In this document: positions 2,466 to 52,954 of the stretch, piece after piece
Layout of the letters: each line of letters opens with the position of its first letter
Numbering within the stretch: the stretch's first letter is position 1
Source of the DNA: Gekko japonicus
Taxonomy: Eukaryota
NCBI RefSeq assembly: GCF_001447785.1
Contig: NW_015167083.1
Span: 536,873-600,872 of the forward strand
Reading direction: 5' to 3'
Length of the DNA: 64,000 bases
Position numbers and translations under genes: made by a program
Notes under the pieces: generated by a model
What the model was told of the DNA's origin: nothing
Databases searched by the model: none
Seen by the model: the letters and a program-made list of their open reading frames with translations, nothing else

Positions 2466-2877
2466 TTGCTGGCGCAGGGCTTAGTAAGGAGAGGTCCTGC
2501 TGAGATCCAAAATAAACACACCACACAACAATTTTGGAATAAAGAACAGGCCACAGCTTTTATTGAACAAGGAAAATTGGCGAAGCATGGGGGTGGATCC
2601 TGGAAAATCGAGCAACCCAACTGCCGCCTGATAACCACGTCCCTCAGCCCGCCTGCTGAGGGAAAACCCAGGAGTGACAAATACTACTGGTATCACAAGG
2701 GCGGCTGCCTCTGCGTGGTACCAATTTGACACCTGGGGTGAGCCTGGCACAGCCCTCGAGATGGGCCTACTGCGTATTGGCTCAAACCCCCAGACCCCTT
2801 AAGGGGGTACCCAAAAAGGGGGAGGTGGACACGCAGGGCCGTCTCCCCGAAAAGGATCCACCCCAGATGCGCAAAAA
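2466..2877 (-). repeat. Ngaro terminal repeat B2, unique poly(A)-signal segment, and C2
   Basis: Copy of B1/C1 with an extra ~120 bp (2501-2620) that carries a minus-strand AATAAA at ~2563 and a GT-rich tract downstream. Confidence 0.85.
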
Positions 2878-2937
2878 CTGCCAACTGTGATAATAACAAA
2901 CTTAGAGAAACTTTTAAACCCAGGGAGGGTGGGTGGG

Positions 2938-3135
2938 GATCCGATGAAAACCGCACTGCCATGCTTCACTGGCAGTGTTGCTTAAATCTCCCAGGCAGGC
3001 TCTACGTCATCACTACGTAGAGCCCGCCAAATTCAAGACCAATCAGCTTCCCCCCCCCAGCTGGCGTGGAGCCAGCCAACGCGGTTGTCCCAGTGTCACG
3101 CCTCTGCTGGCCATTAGACCAAAAAAAGGGGGGGG
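2938..3135 (-). repeat. Ngaro split direct repeat A2
   Basis: gatccgatgaaaaccgcactgcc...ccattagacc-aaaa-gggg matches 7230-7425. Confidence 0.9.
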
Positions 3136-3201
3136 AAGACCTCCTCCAGTCCTCCTTTGCTCACGCAGCAATCCGGCCTTTCAGGTAAGTCTCGGCCGTG
3201 T

Positions 3202-3497
3202 TTGCTGGCGCAGGGCTTAGTAAGGAGAGGTCCTGCCCGCCTGCCACCCGATAACCACGTCCCTCAGCCCGCCTGCTGAGGGAAAACCCAGGAGTGACAA
3301 ATACTACTGGTTTCACAAGGGCGGCTGGCTCTGTGTGGTACCAATTTGACACCTGAGGTGAGCCTGGCACAGCCCCCGAAATGGGCCTACTGCGTATTGG
3401 CTCAACCCCCCAGATCCCTTAAGGGGGTACCCAAAAAGGGGAAGGTGGACATGCAGGGCCGTCTCTCTGAAAAGGATCCACCCCAGATGCGCAAAAA
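3202..3497 (-). repeat. Ngaro internal repeat B1 plus C1
   Basis: 3241-3497 matches 2621-2877 (offset 620). 3202-3236 is identical to 2466-2500 (35 bp). Confidence 0.9.
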
Positions 3498-3548
3498 CCA
3501 CCACTGAGCAAAGGGAGGGAACCCCCCCCTTTGCTCCCGCCAAAGCTC

Positions 3549-4106
3549 CTAAGCCTGAAGCCAACGAAGCAGGGCATCTTGAATGCTGAACAACCATGTG
3601 TCCATTCCCCATTCTGATAGGTGAATCCCATCCCCCCTGTACAGAAACTCATGCCTAAAAGAAGGATGACAGATCCTCCTAAAGCCACGGCAATGCTTCC
3701 TGCATACTTGCTAACGTTTCGTTTTGCTAGGTCCACTCTCTCTGGGTTGATAGCTGCTCTCCAATCTTGACGTTCCAAGAGCTCTGACCAGAATAACCGG
3801 GTGTGAGGAAAGCGTGCAGATAGGATCTCAAGATCTGCTGCAATTGCATGATGTAATTCAGAACCCTTTTTGGCTGGAAATAATTCTCTCCAAGCTGGAT
3901 AATTAGGGCATCGGGTGGGCCGTGCACAAAAACCTGCTGAGCTACCACTTCCAAGAGGGAAGCCCAATGCATTCCCCTCTGGCCCACCCATGTAATTCGC
4001 AGGTGTTTTCCAAGGCCCACTGATTCCCCCCAGCCAGAGACAGCAGTGTACCAACCAGCCCAGTAGACAATACTGTGCCCTACAATCCAGACCTTTCTGA
4101 GCGGAC
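3549..4106 (-). pseudogene. SGNH/GDSL-type hydrolase ORF of the Ngaro element (two frameshifts)
   Basis: Block I VWIVGHSIVYWA, block II G (QRGMHW), block III LIIQLGEN, middle segment RFPHTRLFWSELL (ORF 3419-4054 frame). Block V LYRGDGIHLSEWG read manually at ~3645-3605, ending in TAG at 3551-3549. Confidence 0.85.
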
Positions 4107-4132
4107 CTGCATAGATGAATACAAGCAAAACA

Positions 4133-4597
4133 TTAAGCCAAATGTGGACGAATGTATGATCGAAAGGTAGCTGAGCGCCAGCGACCGATAGCCTGAATTT
4201 TGGAGGCCGGTAGGCCCAAGGTAGATACAGTGGTAGTGGCACCAGTCCGAAAGGAGTGAGTGCCATATTCTAAAGATGGCAGCCCCAGGTGCTCCAAGCA
4301 TTTTCGCAACACACTTGCAAACTGATATCTAGATAGGCAGCACCTGTTGGAATGAATGAAAAATGCACCCACGATAGGTGGCTGGATGGACATGTAATGG
4401 CGAACGCTTTTTACTGGGCAGGGGACCCCAGGAGGACCTTGAGCCAGAGTGATTAAGGTACCTTTGCCTTGCTGGTCAGTTTTGGAATGGCGTAGCACAA
4501 TGTGGAGTTTTTCCTTGCTGACCTTTATGTCTTTAAGTGAAAGCTGCAGATTGTCAGAACTGTGCCGGGAGGAAGCACAGATTTCCCACACAGCGCT
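4133..4597 (-). pseudogene. Tyrosine recombinase catalytic domain, N-terminally deleted
   Basis: SKTDQ (K), CPV, HSFRTGA (H-x-x-R), IGRWRS (W) and SYIR (Y): DIRS/Ngaro YR signature. Confidence 0.93.
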
Positions 4598-5451
4598 GAG
4601 GTGCCCCAATAGGGATTGCATCTCCCTCAGCATGCATTTTGTAGATGCCAGCATTTTCTGCAGGAATTTGCGAAGGGAAGAAAGTTTATCCTCAGGAAGT
4701 CTAGACATGCCCAATTCCGAATCTAGTAATATGCCCAAATATGTCAGCTGTGTTGTAGGACCCTCAGTTTTATCCTTTGCAAGGGGAATTCCTAATTAAT
4801 CTGCCAATGACTGAAAGGTAGCCAGGTAAAAGGCACACTCTGGGGAACCAGATGGACCAATAAACAGGAAATCATCTAAATAATGTGGGGTATTTGCTCT
4901 TCCTTTTGCTACAAATTCCAAAAAAGAACTAAAGGCCTCAAAAGTAGCAACGGCTACAGAGCATCCCATGGGCATGGCTTTATCCACGTACCATAGGCCA
5001 TCCAGCTTGAAACCCAGCAGGCAGAAATCAGCTGGGTGAACAGGTAATAAGCAGAAACCTGATTGGATGTCACATTTTGCAATGAGGGCACCAGGGCCAC
5101 AGGACTGGACTAAACAAACAGCCTGATCAAAAGATGCATACTTAACTGAACAGAGTTCTGGTGGAATAAAATCATTAACTGATGAAAGAGTATGAAAGAT
5201 TATGTATAAGGCGGAATTCCCCTGGGGCCTTCTTGAACCACCCCCAGTGATGAAACCCTGAGATTAATGAATGGAGGGGCTGAAAAAGGTCCTGCAATCC
5301 TGCCCTCGGCACATTCCTTTGCCACCTTCTTTCTGACCACCTCTGGTTGATCCCTCGCTGATTTAAGATTCCCACATACTGTGGTCAAATGTGGACCATC
5401 ATATTGGATCCTAAAACCTGACATGAAACTATCCTTCAAAAAGACTGCCAT
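4598..5451 (-). pseudogene. Ngaro reverse transcriptase; frameshifted, RNase H deleted
   Basis: Motifs GRIAGPF, FRLIHNLS, AKCDIQSGF.LLPVHP, DKAMPMGCS, HYLDDFLFIG, then thumb GILLDS...LREMQSLLGHL. Confidence 0.92.
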
Positions 5452-5545
5452 TTTTTAATTTGCATACAATGCAAGCAAAGGTTCCAGAGCCTGAAAGCGA
5501 ATTGGGGTGCGTGCCAAGGAAACAAGTGCATCCTTGTTAACTGTA

Positions 5546-6533
5546 TTATTTTGAACTGTTTGTAGTGTTGGAATTACCCAATCCTGCTTCCTTTTTCCCA
5601 CCGGCATTGGAAGAGGACCGGAATCCTCGAAAGGGCTGAGAACCACTGCGAGAGCATGACAGCCTGGGATGTGGGCCGAAACACGCATCACAATTATGAT
5701 CAAATTTGCATTTTGTGCGGCTACATTTTCCCTGATCGTACTCCCAGCACACTCTGCGGGGGCTTCCCATCTGAAACCAATCTTAGGCCTTGAATAAGCA
5801 GGCCTTGACTTTGCATGTGGACCCACTTTAACCAGCCAGATTTTATCATTAATGAGGTACCACCTGGCCACAGCGCTATAAGAGGCCCGTTTTTGAAAAG
5901 CCTCATCATATTCCATTGCTGTGGACTCATTGGCCATTGTGCGAGCCTTCAAAACATTTGCCATGTGATTGACCAAATGCCAGCCACGCTCAGGATATGA
6001 TGAAATCACCACCTCCATAAAGGCTGCATAGCCAGACATCCAATTTACGAAATTACGCTCCACTGCCATTTTAGAATTATTTTTTTCCCTGACAAATGAA
6101 TGCCCGGAGGGGGGTATTCTGCATTGCTAAAGGCCAGAGTAGCTCTGCTAGCATCTTGCAGTTCCGATCCCCATACCGCACCAGGACCTGCTCCCTCCCC
6201 TCTATGCTTCCAGGCCCAAGGTGGTAAACTAGGAACGTGTGCTCCTTTCCCCCAATAATCCCCCTTCGCATGTGTGGAATCCTCATCAGAGGCAGACTCA
6301 CCTGATGAGTCATTGCTGGCTTCTCCATGCTCCCGAGCTGACCATGACTTGCCCTTCCTGGAGGACATCTGTTTACGCTTTGGATGATTTTGGACATCCT
6401 CCTTGTCACTGGATGAGATGGACTCCACTGGAGAACGAGGCCTCTTAGGTCTGCTCTTACACCCTGGTGCGGTCTGCGTTGACTGTCCTTCCATCTTATC
6501 AAAACACTCAGAAAGGCACTCCAGTCTGCACAA
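5546..6533 (-). pseudogene. Ngaro ORF1 gag-like protein, frameshifted
   Basis: Successive ORFs 6045-6533, 5455-6069 and 5546-5770. C-terminal Cys/His finger CWEYDQGKCSRTKCKFDHNCDACFGPHPRLSC is typical of YR-retroelement gag. Lies immediately upstream of RT. Confidence 0.8.
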
Positions 6534-6594
6534 TGCCCATCAGAACAGTGGAACTATCGACTGCTGGTGTAGCAGCAGAAGCATAGCCCGGTGT

Positions 6595-6750
6595 CTTAGC
6601 CTCCAGCTCACCCGTCTCAGCTCAGGAAGGATTGCAGCAGAGCAAACCAATCCTTTCAGTAGCCAAATCGCTCAACCACAACCCTTTTACCAGTAGCTCA
6701 CCAAGTAGAATCTTTTTCTTACAAGACTCCACGGCTTAGAGGGAGCACTG
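6595..6750. mobile_element. Truncated hAT MITE fragment inside the Ngaro leader
   Basis: Homologous to the right part of 22558-22764, ending in the TIR gcttagagggagcactg. Confidence 0.75.
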
Positions 6751-7229
6751 ATTTCAGCTACCTTAAAATGATTAACAAAAGATAATTCCACCAATGAAAC
6801 ATAACAAGAAACCCTGACTCACCCCCAATGGAAATGCCTCAATGGTTTTTGCCAGCAGTTTCTGTGCACAGCCCCCCCTCTCGATGATCTCCCTTCCCAG
6901 CTCAGACCCGGCTGAGCTTCCCACTCCATGCAAACCCAGCAAAAAAGCTGCAGGAAAAATATGCTCAAACCAAAAACGGCCCCAGCCTGCGTTGCAAAGC
7001 CAGTCAACCAGCCAAAAAAGCCCCACTTCGCTGTGATAAAAGCGAAGGGGATCTACTTACCCTTGCACGAGGGCCACCAAAAGTTTTCCTGTGCTGCTGA
7101 TGCCTCAGAATGCTGAGCCAATCTGCTGCAGACCTCCGAGAGACCAGGAAGAGGAGGAGCAGCCGAGTCACACTGAGAGCAGCTGAATAGAAACTGAAAG
7201 CAAGCAGACGATCAGGAAGGGAAGTGATC

Positions 7230-7425
7230 GATCCAACGAAAACTGCACTGCCACGTTTCATTGGCAGCGCTGCTTAAATCTCCTGGGCAGGCTCTACATC
7301 ATCACTACATAGAGCCCACCCAAATTCAAGACCAATCAGCTCCCCCCCCCAAGCTGGCATAGAGCCAGCCAATGCGGTTGTCCCAGTTTCGCGCCTCTGC
7401 TGGCCATTAGACAAAAGGGGGGGGG
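7230..7425 (-). repeat. Ngaro split direct repeat A1 (promoter-like)
   Basis: Aligns by eye to 2938-3135. Contains CCAAT boxes and a ggctctac...gtagagcc-type palindrome. Confidence 0.9.
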
Positions 7426-8728: not shown

Positions 8729-11700
8729 CTCAAGGACTAGTGAGGCTGATGTATTCTGCTGGTTTACAGTTGGCCTGTATTTATCTGACTCAGCTGGTGA
8801 TTCTACCGAAGCTCTTGTGCAGAACAGGGAAAATGCTTGGGCACTTGACACTTCTCATAGGTATTGCCTCCCTCTTGCATGAGCTTAAATATCTCCTAGA
8901 AATGTGAAGTGTTTTTGTTTTCAGTTTTTGTTTTTTTTCTGCTTTTCATACTGTATTCATTTTTTATTGTATTGATTATTAATCCATTGGCTTCCCTATT
9001 ACTAGGGGAAAGAAGAGGGGCATTATTTCACTGGAATTATTGTGTGGACCACTTTCATTGAGATTATCACCTGTGCAGTTAAATCAGCAAGTAGTAAAGG
9101 TAGGATCAAAACCTAGGAGAAAATGGTATATCCTTATTACAATCAACACACACACCCTTTGAAATAGACAGGCTAGTTTCTCTTTTGGAACTTTCCAATC
9201 AAATGTGCATGGCGTTCTCTTTTTTTAATCTGCCTTTGACTCTGCTCATTAAGAAAGGAAATAGATAATGATTTTTTTGATGCAGAGAGAAGAAATGTTT
9301 CTTCTCTTTGCAAATTAATTCTTACTAGCATCATTTAAGCCAACTATAAAATGTGGTGGCTTGACTATTCATTAAAAAAGACAAGAACACAAGCCTCCTG
9401 GAAACCCGGCCAAGCACCATTTGCTGAAACACTACTGGGAACCTCACATATATTTCTAGTGATTCTCAGAAGGAATGTACCAGGCAAAGTCCAGCTGAAT
9501 TTTGTAAAAAGGAAGCAAGAGAAAGAATTAGTAAAATAAGATAAATGTACTGCCTAATCCTACATCTTATTTAACTGGTAAACGTGCTTAGGATAAGGGC
9601 ACAATGATATTATTATTTTTTTGCCAGTACAACTGGGGGCAGGTGTCATGTTGGCACTGAATACTAGTGCAGGACACCATGACAGCACAACAGTGGGAAT
9701 TTCTGTTGCTGTGGGAACAGCTACCGACACCAAGTATGCTGTAAAAGTACAGGATAAAACCTGAGATCAAGGCAGGCAAATGAGGAGAGGGGGCTTGATT
9801 TGGTGTGTCCTAAAAAACAGTTTGGCCATTAAGGAACCGGATACCTTGATGCAACCCTGATGGATTGGGATAGCAGGATAGGCTTCTCATGTTTGGGTGC
9901 AGTTTAAACTACGCCGATATACCCATAGCGTGCATTCTTGAAGATGTTTGCATCAGTCTAGCTAAGGGTGTACATATGTGGAAGCAGCCATGGTAGTCAT
10001 CTGTAAGCTGTGTGGAGCACAGTCAGATAACCCATGTTTTCAAATTCCAGTAGAGGAGCAGGAGGCTAGGTTTAGCATTCCTGTATTAGTGTTTCCACTT
10101 CATTGGTGTAATTGTTGATTACCAATCCTGGCTACTACCTTTCAGGCCTACAGAGCCAGATAAGTCAAGTGATTTGTTGTCATATTACATTTGAGTTGGG
10201 CAGAGTGAGAGTGGGTCAAAGTGAGCCTTTGTCTCTGAGCTCCCATGGTGGCTCTTGGCAGACCTAACTGGAGTTGTTGACGAACAAGCCAGTAGTTATG
10301 ATGTGATAAACCTTGTATACAACAGCAGTAATGCTGGTGAATGCCATTGAATTAATACTCCAAGTGTTTTATGTTTCAAGTTCGGGGAAATAGCCATCTA
10401 TTTATATCATATTACTTTATTCTTTTTGCTGTTGTACAGCTGAAAGGAAAGGGGGGAGGGACACTTGTCACAGAGCTGCTCTAAAATTTTCAAATCGCTG
10501 ACTTCCAACTGTGACAAGCTTAGCACAGCTATTAGTCCGGCTGGTGGAAGGTTCTCTTTTTGACTTACTTACTAAACCTGCTTTCAATACTCCCCATGGG
10601 TTCTAGTTCAAGGACTGGCTGAGTGAACAAACAGCAAGTTCAGTTACCAGATTTAATCTGTCAGGCGCAAACAGCTGTCAGATCCATCTGTGGGACATTC
10701 TCAAGGGGTGCAGACATCAAAAGCCCCAAGATTCCTCGTGAAACTCTCTTGTATTTCCCAAAATGCGTGAGGACTGCAGCATAAAGGAAGGTGACTGGCA
10801 ATATGGAGGAATGTTTGCATCTCAAAATAAATAGAGACTTTCGGTTTGTACAAATGCAAATGAAAACGTCAGCCGCGTCTGGTGTCACTAGGGTTGTAAC
10901 ATACCTTCCACAAGGACATTTGTTGTCACTCTTTCTTTGATCATCCCCGACGTTTCAGTAACAGAGACAGCCAAGTTGTCACTGAGTTAGTCTTTACATG
11001 GTGCAGGAATGAAAATTTATTCGCTGTGTCGTTTCCCACAGATCCTTCAACTGCTTGCTGAACTTTGAAAACCCTCTCCCTGGTGCTTCTGCCGCATGAC
11101 TGAGTTTCCTCTTTTTAAGTTTTACAACATATGTATTTGTACACATTAACAATGATTTAGAAAATTGAATTCAAATGAACAAATATTTACTTAACCCCTG
11201 TGTCTTCAAATACCAAAAGGTTTAAGAGAATTTGCTAATCTGTGCCACTAACATTTTCTTCTGTGGCCTGAAAGTAACACAAAAGCTATAAACAAAGAAA
11301 GGATGTATCTAAACTGTAAGGGATGATCCAATGGCCTGATGCTATTCCTATGTGCTCATTATGCTATGGACAAATAGGAGCTGTCCCACTCATTTCAGTG
11401 TCAGTGACTGATTGAGGATTTTTCACTGAAGTTTCTGTAGAGCACTGTATGGTTGTAACATTGCCCTGGTTGCACATTGGAGCTTTGGGCTTCCATTCTC
11501 AACTTGTTTTCTCTGGAATAATTCATATGTCATTTATACAAATTAATTTGCCTAGCTAGAATACTTAGTTATGGGATTATGGTTATAACAAGTGGTGGTA
11601 TTGCAGACAGTCTACAATGACTTTTATCTACAGACAAAAGGAGTCACAATGGGATGTGCAGCTGCACCATCAATTGCAAATTTGTATATGGCAGAACTTG

Positions 11701-12914
11701 AGGAAACCTTTATATTACAACCTGAACAAAATAATTTTTCTTTAATATAGAAAAGTACTATCACTTTTTGGATGATATTTTCATCATATATAAGGACAAA
11801 ACCTCAGTGGAACAATTTTGTACTTGGTCTAATAACGTGGATGCTAATATTAAGCTCACTTGGAATTATAGCATCCAACAGGTTGAGTTCCTGGATGTGA
11901 CTGTCTTTAAAACCTCTTCTTTATTTTTGGCCACTAGGACTTTCAAAAAACCAACTGATAGAAATACATTAGTCAGCTTCAGTTCTTTCCACCCGGCACA
12001 TTTGAGACATAATATTCCCTTTTCACAATTGTTAAGAATAAAGAGAAATTCAACCAGGGAAAGTGATTATTTACAGGATTCTGAACAACTTCTCTATGCC
12101 TTTAGGAATAGGGGCTATCCCTCAAATGTACTATTTAGAGCTAAGGAAAGGGTGGAACTACATGAAATAAAATCCTTATTTGAGAAACCAGTTGTTTCCC
12201 CCCCATCATCAGGTGTTACATGGGCAATGGATTATACTCCTCTTTCCTTCTCTATCGAAAGGATTATTACCAAATATAAGGGAGGATATACAGGTTAGGA
12301 CTCAGTCTGTAGGACATAGACGTTGTTTGAAATGTAAAGCCTGCAAGGTAATGTGGGAAAGTGACAATTTCATCTTAAATGGCATAACTGTGTATAGTAA
12401 TGCAAGTTCTACTTGTGAAAGTGCCTTTGTTGTGTATTTTATCCAGTGTGATTGTTTAAAGCTATACATTGGAAGTATCACCAGATCATTGCATGTAAGA
12501 ATTATGGAACACATTACAAGAAATAAACAAGGGAGGCACCACTTACAGAGCATTTTGCCTCTCAAAACCACAAAGCAGATCAGTTTAGATGTGGTGTGCT
12601 CTTTGTTGCAGACTCAAAATGCCCATTGGCTATGAAGGAATTACTTCGCCAGGAACACAGGTGGATCTTTAAATTAAACACCTTGGTCCCTAATGGTTTA
12701 AAAAGTGATTTTGATTTAAGTTGTTTCTTATAAAATTCTGTAAACAAGTAGGTTATTTCAGGTCAGTTTTCCTTCCTTTGGTTTACCCACCAGTTTATTA
12801 GAAACTTCATTCTTAGAAATATAAAAATATAAAATAGTACTGATGTAAGTTGTGTCAGAATATTGTGGCTCCAGATTGTCAGTACATACTTAATGGCATA
12901 TGTTGTGTGTTAAT

Positions 12915-22557: not shown

Positions 22558-22764
22558 CAGTGTTCCCTCTAAGCTGAGTTAGTGTGAGCTAGCTCACAGT
22601 TTTTTTAGCCTCCAGCACATACATTTTTGTCTCAGCTCAGGAAGGGTGGCTCCAGAGCAAACTAATTTATGCAGTAGCCAAATCCCTCGCTCACAACTTT
22701 AATGCCAGTAGCTCACAAAGTAGAATTTTTGCTCACAAGACTCCGCAGCTTAGAGGGAGCATTG
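22558..22764. mobile_element. hAT MITE
   Basis: TIR cagtgttccctctaagctg / cagcttagagggagcattg; perfect 8-bp TSD cacacaac. Confidence 0.9.
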
Positions 22765-52736: not shown

Positions 52737-52954
52737 CACTGTTCCCTCTAAGCTTAGCTGAGTTGGTGTGAGCTAGCTCACAGGTTCTTAGCCTCTGGCT
52801 CACACATTTTTGTCTTAGCTCAGGAATGATGGTTCCAGAGAAAACCAATTAATGCAGTAGCCAAATCACCTGCCTGCACACAACAACGTTAATGCCTGTA
52901 GCTCACAAAGTACAATTCTTACTCACAGGACTGCATAGCTTAGAGGGAGTATTG
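52737..52954. mobile_element. hAT MITE, same family as 22558
   Basis: cactgttccctctaagct / agcttagagggagtattg termini; body aligns with 22558-22764. Confidence 0.8.

What the first reader, a model, noticed from the sequence alone, without database searches (positions are those of the whole stretch)
3549..7060. Ngaro hydrolase has no ATG and sits behind a 3' splice site; the leader also has canonical splice sites
Seen, minus strand: directly after the YR stop the sequence reads gcTTAAt-gttttgcttgtattcatctatgcAG|GTCCGCTCAGAAAGGTCTGGATTGTAGGGCAC. This is a branch-like motif overlapping the YR stop, a pyrimidine-rich tract and AG at 4108-4107 (phase 1), with no in-frame ATG between the YR stop and block I. 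The leader has donor AAGG|GTAAGT at 7060 with acceptor atttttcctgcAG at 6948 (113 nt), and donor GG|GTGAGT at 6822 with acceptor ttttaAG at 6762 (61 nt). Inference: the hydrolase is made from a spliced, env-like subgenomic mRNA, possibly as a fusion to a leader or gag exon. I could not find a phase-matched donor in this decayed copy.
Basis: partly seen in the sequence, partly recalled or inferred. Interest (0 to 1): 0.7.

Follow-up and report, generated by a model that had tools for sequence, protein, structure and literature searches.

The report
Ngaro hydrolase spliced onto gag start
A decayed jumping gene of a reptile-like genome carries splice signals suggesting that elements of its family make their lipid-esterase-like protein, and probably their recombinase, by splicing the front part of gag onto each downstream gene, which offers an answer to how these extra genes are read.

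Summary
All motifs are at the stated coordinates. The element is a decayed Ngaro retrotransposon with an SGNH hydrolase after YR. It joins a 64-codon basic gag start in frame to the hydrolase. Relatives support this. One gecko RefSeq locus has three isoforms sharing 305 residues that diverge at the homologous S-S-G|E-S site into gag, YR or hydrolase. Similar fusions are modelled in lizards, amphibians and molluscs. A phase-1 YAG precedes the hydrolase in 4 of 6 distinct DNA sequences (background 2-6%; rule set after looking), including all 3 with YR upstream. Corrections: an in-frame ATG exists at 4266, overlapping YR; the leader introns are unsupported and neither leader donor yields the hydrolase; a MITE sits at 6546-6750. 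RNA reads did not cover the acceptor, so no junction was seen directly, and the evidence rests on gene models. The scan noted spliced Ngaro expression before in two other genomes. I found no paper describing it, though introns in such elements are mentioned in 2004 (recalled).

The parts
7213..7425 (-). Split direct repeat A1 (5' end)
   Evidence: 80-89% identical to 2921-3132; 87% over 199 columns
6948..7060 (-). Candidate leader intron 1 (G|GTAAGT ... CAG), pairing unproven
   Evidence: motifs read directly; no junction read; no ATG upstream within the element
6762..6822 (-). Candidate leader intron 2 (G|GTGAGT ... AAG), weak acceptor, pairing unproven
   Evidence: ends 11 nt before the MITE
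6546..6750 (.). Inserted MITE-like repeat with short terminal inverted repeats; not part of the Ngaro element
   Evidence: two more copies at about 22605-22764 and 52786-52949; DNA depth about 2,700-6,800 vs mostly 2-11 in the element body
6302..6494 (-). Predicted shared first coding exon: ATG 6494, 64 codons + 1 nt, low-complexity, 20% Arg/Lys
   Evidence: start codon inferred, a longer N-terminus may have been disrupted by the MITE
6296..6304 (-).
   Evidence: only [AC]AGGTRAGT on the sense strand of the element; S-S-G-E-S invariant in window, P0159 and P0160; isoform branch point in P0151/P0158/P0159
5546..6301 (-). Gag-like core and CCCH-type finger, broken by frameshifts and a deletion
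   Evidence: 43% to P0159 over 100 aa; weak zf-CCCH hits
4640..5545 (-). Reverse transcriptase, broken; RNase H and the YR N-terminus are deleted in this copy
   Evidence: RVT_1 E 9e-5; one frame runs from RT into YR
4133..4585 (-). Tyrosine recombinase C-terminal part, stop at 4135-4133
   Evidence: Phage_integrase E 1e-5; 39% to P0158 481-627
4264..4266 (-). In-frame ATG of the hydrolase frame, formed by the Tyr-Gly codons of YR
4107..4137 (-). Branch-like motif overlapping the YR stop, pyrimidine tract (14/20) and phase-1 CAG acceptor
3549..4106 (-). SGNH hydrolase exon (blocks GHS, GMxW, GEN, DGxH); broken by frameshifts near 3870 and 3660
   Evidence: 333 homologues; family profile hits 4C1B at E 3.5e-10; frames
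3202..3503 (-). Split direct repeat B1
   Evidence: 93% to 2616-2883, plus 35 nt identical to 2466-2500
2921..3132 (-). Split direct repeat A2
2466..2883 (-). Split direct repeat B2 (interrupted near its 3' end)

Best explanation
This is a dead copy of a hydrolase-bearing Ngaro retrotransposon. In this group a phase-1 donor inside gag acts as a hub. Unspliced RNA gives full Gag and serves as genome. Splicing from that donor to an acceptor just after the YR stop gives a protein made of the basic, low-complexity gag N-terminus plus the SGNH hydrolase. Splicing to an acceptor before YR gives the same N-terminus plus recombinase. Shown: the signals and their phase match in the window, conservation of the donor's position in gag, recurrence of the acceptor, and matching gene models in relatives. 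Inferred: that the splices occur in active elements, and that the shared N-terminus supplies the start codon and RNA/particle targeting, making the fusion resemble the esterase ORF1p of ZfL2-1, which binds membranes.
For: Phase match 6302|6301 to 4107|4106. Paroedura picta LOC143819120: isoforms X1, X2, X3 share residues 1-305 and continue into YR, gag core and hydrolase. The branch point aligns with the window donor, S-S-G-E-S being invariant in 3 of 3 gag sequences (26% and 52% identity to the first). Mytilus LOC134685303: the same S-S-G joins the hydrolase (X2) or the first 12 residues of the YR ORF (X1). Gag-N-to-YR joins also in Eublepharis, Hemicordylus and Bombina models. 12 of 15 listed members of a 35-member Bombina cluster carry one identical junction. 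38 of 60 rows with long N-termini lacking YR/RH/gag-core matches are low-complexity (6 rows are slicing artefacts, none among the 38). Same-family pairs with unrelated upstream sequence converge at one Gly in a Podarcis-type and a Pleurodeles-type family. DNA: phase-1 YAG in 4 of 6 distinct sequences, 3 of 3 with YR upstream, background 2-6%. Read-through proteins end their hydrophobic tract in [STPA][GDE] in 12 of 21 vs 33 of 165 (p 6e-4). L006 has no in-frame ATG after the last stop, and L002 none before block I.
Against: No junction read was seen: three RNA runs had zero depth over 4016-4745 and the MITE swamped the joint table. The isoforms are gene models whose RNA support I could not inspect; Gnomon mixes alignments with ab initio prediction (PMC12605758). 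16 of 150 hits join YR, RH or gag-core pieces to the hydrolase, and some join host genes, so models attach many upstream partners. P0118 breaks the Gly rule (N before the exon) and Bombina uses a donor four codons earlier for YR. 2 of 5 distinct metagenome loci lack the acceptor and have an ATG instead (neither shows YR upstream). Donor conservation rests on three gag sequences in a Ser-rich region. Both acceptor rules were set after looking.
Confidence: 0.72

Rival explanations
1. The splice sites are cryptic or incidental: annotation pipelines, or leaky splicing of silenced copies, join whatever lies upstream to a usable AG, and the element does not depend on a gag-hydrolase fusion.
For: Many different upstream partners in models (16 of 150 with YR/RH/gag-core pieces; host fusions); ab initio share unknown; no junction reads.
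Against: One donor feeds both YR and hydrolase in frame in a gecko and a mussel; donor position conserved across distant gags; acceptor phase constant in DNA loci.
Confidence: 0.13
2. The hydrolase is a separate overlapping ORF translated from its own ATG (here 4266) by leaky scanning, reinitiation or an internal promoter, as the published four-ORF map implies.
For: Frame open from 4269 with ATG at 4266; P0129 is an 86-residue read-through of the same overlap; Xenopus Ngaro ORFs all overlap (PMC9210276); L005 has in-frame ATGs.
Against: The ATG is a by-product of YR Tyr-Gly codons; L006 has in-frame stops and no ATG before the domain, L002 none before block I; upstream extensions are not conserved among hits and end in tract-like hydrophobic runs.
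Confidence: 0.09
3. Env-like scheme: a leader donor (7060 or 6822) splices straight to the hydrolase acceptor, bypassing gag.
For: Strong donors in the leader; two transcripts encode the same X2 protein in Paroedura, so untranslated variants exist.
Against: No ATG before 7060 within the element; ATG 6929 to donor 6822 is 107 nt, phase 2 (and direct reading); homologous models carry long gag-like N-termini.
Confidence: 0.04
4. Stop-start coupling at TAATG (4135-4131) reinitiates translation on the hydrolase.
For: TAATG overlaps the YR stop; such coupling is known in SART1 and some RNA viruses (recalled).
Against: That ATG is out of the hydrolase frame and ends at 4080; L005 and L006 have a spacer after YR and no such in-frame overlap.
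Confidence: 0.02

Closest known systems
Hydrolase-bearing Ngaro elements, e.g. Xenopus DIRS-53_XT and DIRS-54_XT (PMC9210276 and its preprint, passages read)
   Same: A1-[gag, RT/RH, YR, SGNH]-B1-A2-B2 layout; hydrolase after YR
   Different: Described as four overlapping ORFs with a hydrolase of no proven function; 'intron' occurs 0 times in either version and 'splic' 0 times in the preprint. Here the hydrolase, and probably YR, are read as spliced gag-N fusions.
ZfL2-1 ORF1p esterase, PDB 4C1B (PMC3905857, passages read)
   Same: Best solved match of the family profile (E 3.5e-10); SGNH domain behind an N-terminal region with arginine-rich motif; binds anionic lipids
   Different: There the esterase is a fixed part of one ORF in a non-LTR element; here the fusion would be made by splicing in a YR element, beside a full Gag. 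Activity untested here.
Spliced retroviral and LTR-element RNAs: env mRNAs, foamy virus pol and Bet, copia gag RNA (all recalled, no call)
   Same: Downstream genes expressed from subgenomic spliced RNA while unspliced RNA is genome
   Different: No envelope or membrane anchor; donor lies tens to hundreds of codons inside gag and serves both the integrating enzyme and the accessory enzyme

Membership tests
Ngaro (DIRS order) | Split direct repeats A1 ... B1 A2 B2 | tested here: met
Ngaro (DIRS order) | gag-like ORF, RT, then tyrosine recombinase | tested here: met
   all broken in this copy
Ngaro (DIRS order) | RNase H present and methyltransferase absent | tested here: inconclusive
   this region is deleted in the copy
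Ngaro (DIRS order) | RT tree groups with Ngaro, not PAT or DIRS | not tested
   no tree built
Hydrolase-bearing Ngaro | SGNH domain after YR | tested here: met
   (Lipase_GDSL_2 below cut-off in 4 of 10 proteins scanned); the window piece itself had no Pfam hit
SGNH esterase, active | Ser, Gly, Asn and Asp-x-x-His blocks in one intact frame with activity | tested here: not met
   motifs present but split over three frames in this copy; activity not testable
Retroviral env-type subgenomic mRNA | Leader donor spliced to the last ORF, which has its own start or only a few gag codons | tested here: not met
   leader donors give no start or the wrong phase; matched donor lies 64 codons into gag
Spliced expression | Junction reads at the predicted donor and acceptor | tested here: inconclusive
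   no RNA depth at the acceptor

The most novel reading that the evidence does not exclude
Animal Ngaro elements from molluscs to lizards share an undescribed expression plan: one gag-internal donor yields Gag, gagN-recombinase and gagN-esterase, so the recombinase and a membrane-binding esterase are delivered to the element's particle by a common basic N-terminus, and splice choice sets their ratio to genomic RNA. The portable hydrolase exon has also been trapped by host genes.
Probability: 0.5. Interest if true: 0.76.

Novelty: new variant of a known kind. Interest (0 to 1): 0.63.

Why it matters
The papers I read describe YR retrotransposons as overlapping ORFs and give the Ngaro hydrolase no proven function; none of the passages says how the downstream ORFs are translated. 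A named donor and acceptors make this testable with existing RNA-seq. It also changes what the real proteins are: hydrolase and recombinase would carry a gag N-terminus, which matters for any biochemistry, and it links Ngaro to esterase-bearing LINE ORF1 proteins with a proposed membrane role. It would also explain many 'uncharacterized' reptile, amphibian and mollusc gene models.

Tried and rejected
No host genome is held, so copies could not be compared. Run search: no RNA holder listed. Read lay: three RNA runs and one DNA run; RNA depth 0 over 4016-4745 and at most about 2 elsewhere inside; the 15 listed joints all lie in the MITE and 10 were not shown; inconclusive. DNA depth in the leader 6790-7227 was under 1 against mostly 2-11 in the body, so leader-site conservation could not be read. 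Word-index search with the window hydrolase found nothing. Viral contigs: one 17-residue match, L001, with no tblastn support, dropped; none with the alignment. The gag search returned only two Paroedura proteins, which limits the donor test. Rejected: TAATG coupling (out of frame), direct leader-to-hydrolase splicing (no start or wrong phase), AG at 7031 as partner of 7060 (30 nt, too short). No structure or complex prediction was run. Literature: searches gave no paper describing this scheme; Goodwin and Poulter 2004 is not held, Poulter and Butler 2015 was not read, and the Xenopus supplementary tables, which may list ORF starts, were not read.

Full report
What the element is. The minus strand from about 7425 to 2466 holds split direct repeats in the order A1 ... 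B1 A2 B2, a gag-like region (43% to a gecko gag over 100 aa), reverse transcriptase and the C-terminal part of a tyrosine recombinase (Pfam E 9e-5 and 1e-5, both below cut-off), and a last ORF with 333 homologues. A profile of 30 of these hits the ZfL2-1 ORF1 esterase, 4C1B, best among solved structures (E 3.5e-10). This is the layout of hydrolase-bearing Ngaro elements (PMC9210276, passages). The copy is dead: RNase H and the YR N-terminus are deleted, and gag, RT and hydrolase are frameshifted. A 205-nt MITE sits at 6546-6750, with two more copies in the window.

The observation. Two statements fail. The hydrolase frame is open from 4269 and has an ATG at 4266, made by the Tyr-Gly codons of YR. 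And a phase-matched donor does exist: CAG|GTGAGT at 6302|6301, the only site of that consensus on the element's sense strand. It lies 193 nt after ATG 6494, which is phase 1, the phase of the acceptor at 4107. Taken alone the acceptor is weak evidence: 25 other AGs on the sense strand have tracts of 13 or more pyrimidines in 18 nt. The three donors cluster in the 5' 964 nt (3 against 0.15 expected; none in the next 2750 nt; region chosen after looking).

The donor in relatives. RefSeq locus LOC143819120 of Paroedura picta has three isoforms identical over residues 1-305. After S-S-G, X2 continues E-S into the gag core, X1 continues into YR and X3 into the hydrolase. Aligned with X2 and a second gag 52% identical to it, the window's gag keeps S-S-G-E-S at the same place, just before a shared W-P-P-W pattern. 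S-G-E-S is what the donor reads as when unspliced. In Mytilus LOC134685303 one S-S-G joins the hydrolase in X2 and the first 12 residues of the YR ORF in X1. Gag-N-to-YR joins also appear in Eublepharis, Hemicordylus and Bombina models, the last at a site four codons earlier than its hydrolase join. In Bombina, 12 of 15 listed members of a 35-member cluster share one junction. Only three gag sequences were available for the donor test.

The acceptor in relatives. A metagenome scan gave 7 loci, 5 distinct. With the window, 4 of 6 have a phase-1 YAG 11-29 nt before the block I Gly codon, with a pyrimidine tract and no AG upstream; the background rate is 2-6% (rule set after looking). All three with YR directly upstream (window, L005, L006) have it. 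The two without it (L003, L007) show no YR and have an in-frame ATG. L006 has no ATG after its last in-frame stop. Among the 150 listed hits, block I was located in 124; 21 have a hydrophobic run just upstream, as a translated pyrimidine tract would give, and 12 of these end in [STPA][GDE], the shadow of a phase-1 CAG, against 33 of 165 control runs (p 6e-4). Podarcis proteins P0005 and P0161 share the hydrolase and part exactly at that Gly, one running into a tract, the other into a gag-like N-terminus. A Pleurodeles-type family does the same across unrelated upstream partners. P0118 is an exception.

What was not shown. Three RNA runs had no depth over 4016-4745, and the MITE filled the joint table, so neither the main junction nor the leader introns were tested. 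The isoforms are models. Gnomon uses alignments where strong and intrinsic signals elsewhere (PMC12605758, passages), and I could not see their support. Sixteen of 150 hits join YR, RH or gag-core pieces to the hydrolase, and some join host genes. This shows the acceptor is used in models but weakens the case for one partner. The leader introns have no support beyond motifs. Donor 7060 has no ATG before it, and ATG 6929 to donor 6822 is phase 2, so neither can give the hydrolase.

Mechanism. Most likely (about 0.72): unspliced RNA gives Gag and genome; the gag donor splices to an acceptor before YR or to the one after the YR stop; each product begins with the basic low-complexity gag N-terminus (20% Arg/Lys in the window exon). 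The YR acceptor cannot be checked here because that region is deleted. By analogy with ZfL2-1 ORF1p, where an esterase behind an arginine-rich motif and a coiled coil binds anionic lipids and is proposed to target particles to membranes (PMC3905857, passages), the fusion would tether an esterase to the element's particle. That function is inference. Rivals: incidental splicing or model artefact (0.13), own ATG in the overlap (0.09), leader-to-hydrolase splice (0.04), TAATG coupling (0.02).

Novelty. Seven searches and passages of PMC9210276 and its preprint, PMC7192593, PMC6681497, PMC3783388, PMC9341512 and PMC4495291 showed overlapping ORFs and a hydrolase of unknown function, but no spliced expression of the elements' own genes. 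I recall that the 2004 paper naming Ngaro mentions spliceosomal introns in some YR elements; it is not held, and the 2015 review was not read. Two earlier notes of this scan propose spliced Ngaro expression in other genomes; I found them after forming this reading and did not test them. Verdict: a new variant of a known kind, interest 0.63.

Noticed in passing
proteins P0001, P0002, P0006, P0012, P0064: Large proteins with 2 to 6 tandem Ngaro-type SGNH domains; P0001 (Sphaerodactylus LOC125439779, five isoforms) and P0002 share a long non-hydrolase N-terminus that is also related to the single-domain P0014 and P0044. Possibly a domesticated, expanded hydrolase exon; several copies have lost the block I Ser (G-D-A, G-H-A).
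   Followed up: partly
proteins P0119, P0070: Gene models in which host genes (PUB/B-box; FAM69 kinase domain) are joined to the hydrolase exon: exon trapping or model artefact.
   Followed up: no
window 6546-6750, 22605-22764, 52786-52949: Very high-copy MITE-like repeat (hundreds of times the element's DNA depth), inserted into the Ngaro 5' region.
   Followed up: partly
window about 5540-5560, minus strand: Two CAGs flanking the gag stop (5548-5546) are both phase 1 to the frame that enters RT; tracts are A-rich and weak. A possible RT acceptor, read by eye only.
   Followed up: no
window 2501-2615: About 115 nt present inside B2 but not in B1, containing an AATAAA and a GT-rich run: possible 3' processing signal or a deletion in B1.
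   Followed up: no
L002, L003/L004, L007/L008: Hydrolase homologues with no YR detected upstream; L002 keeps the phase-1 acceptor, the others have an ATG instead.
   Followed up: partly
window 11569-12298, + strand: RT-like and downstream frames resembling a Penelope-type element (by eye).
   Followed up: no
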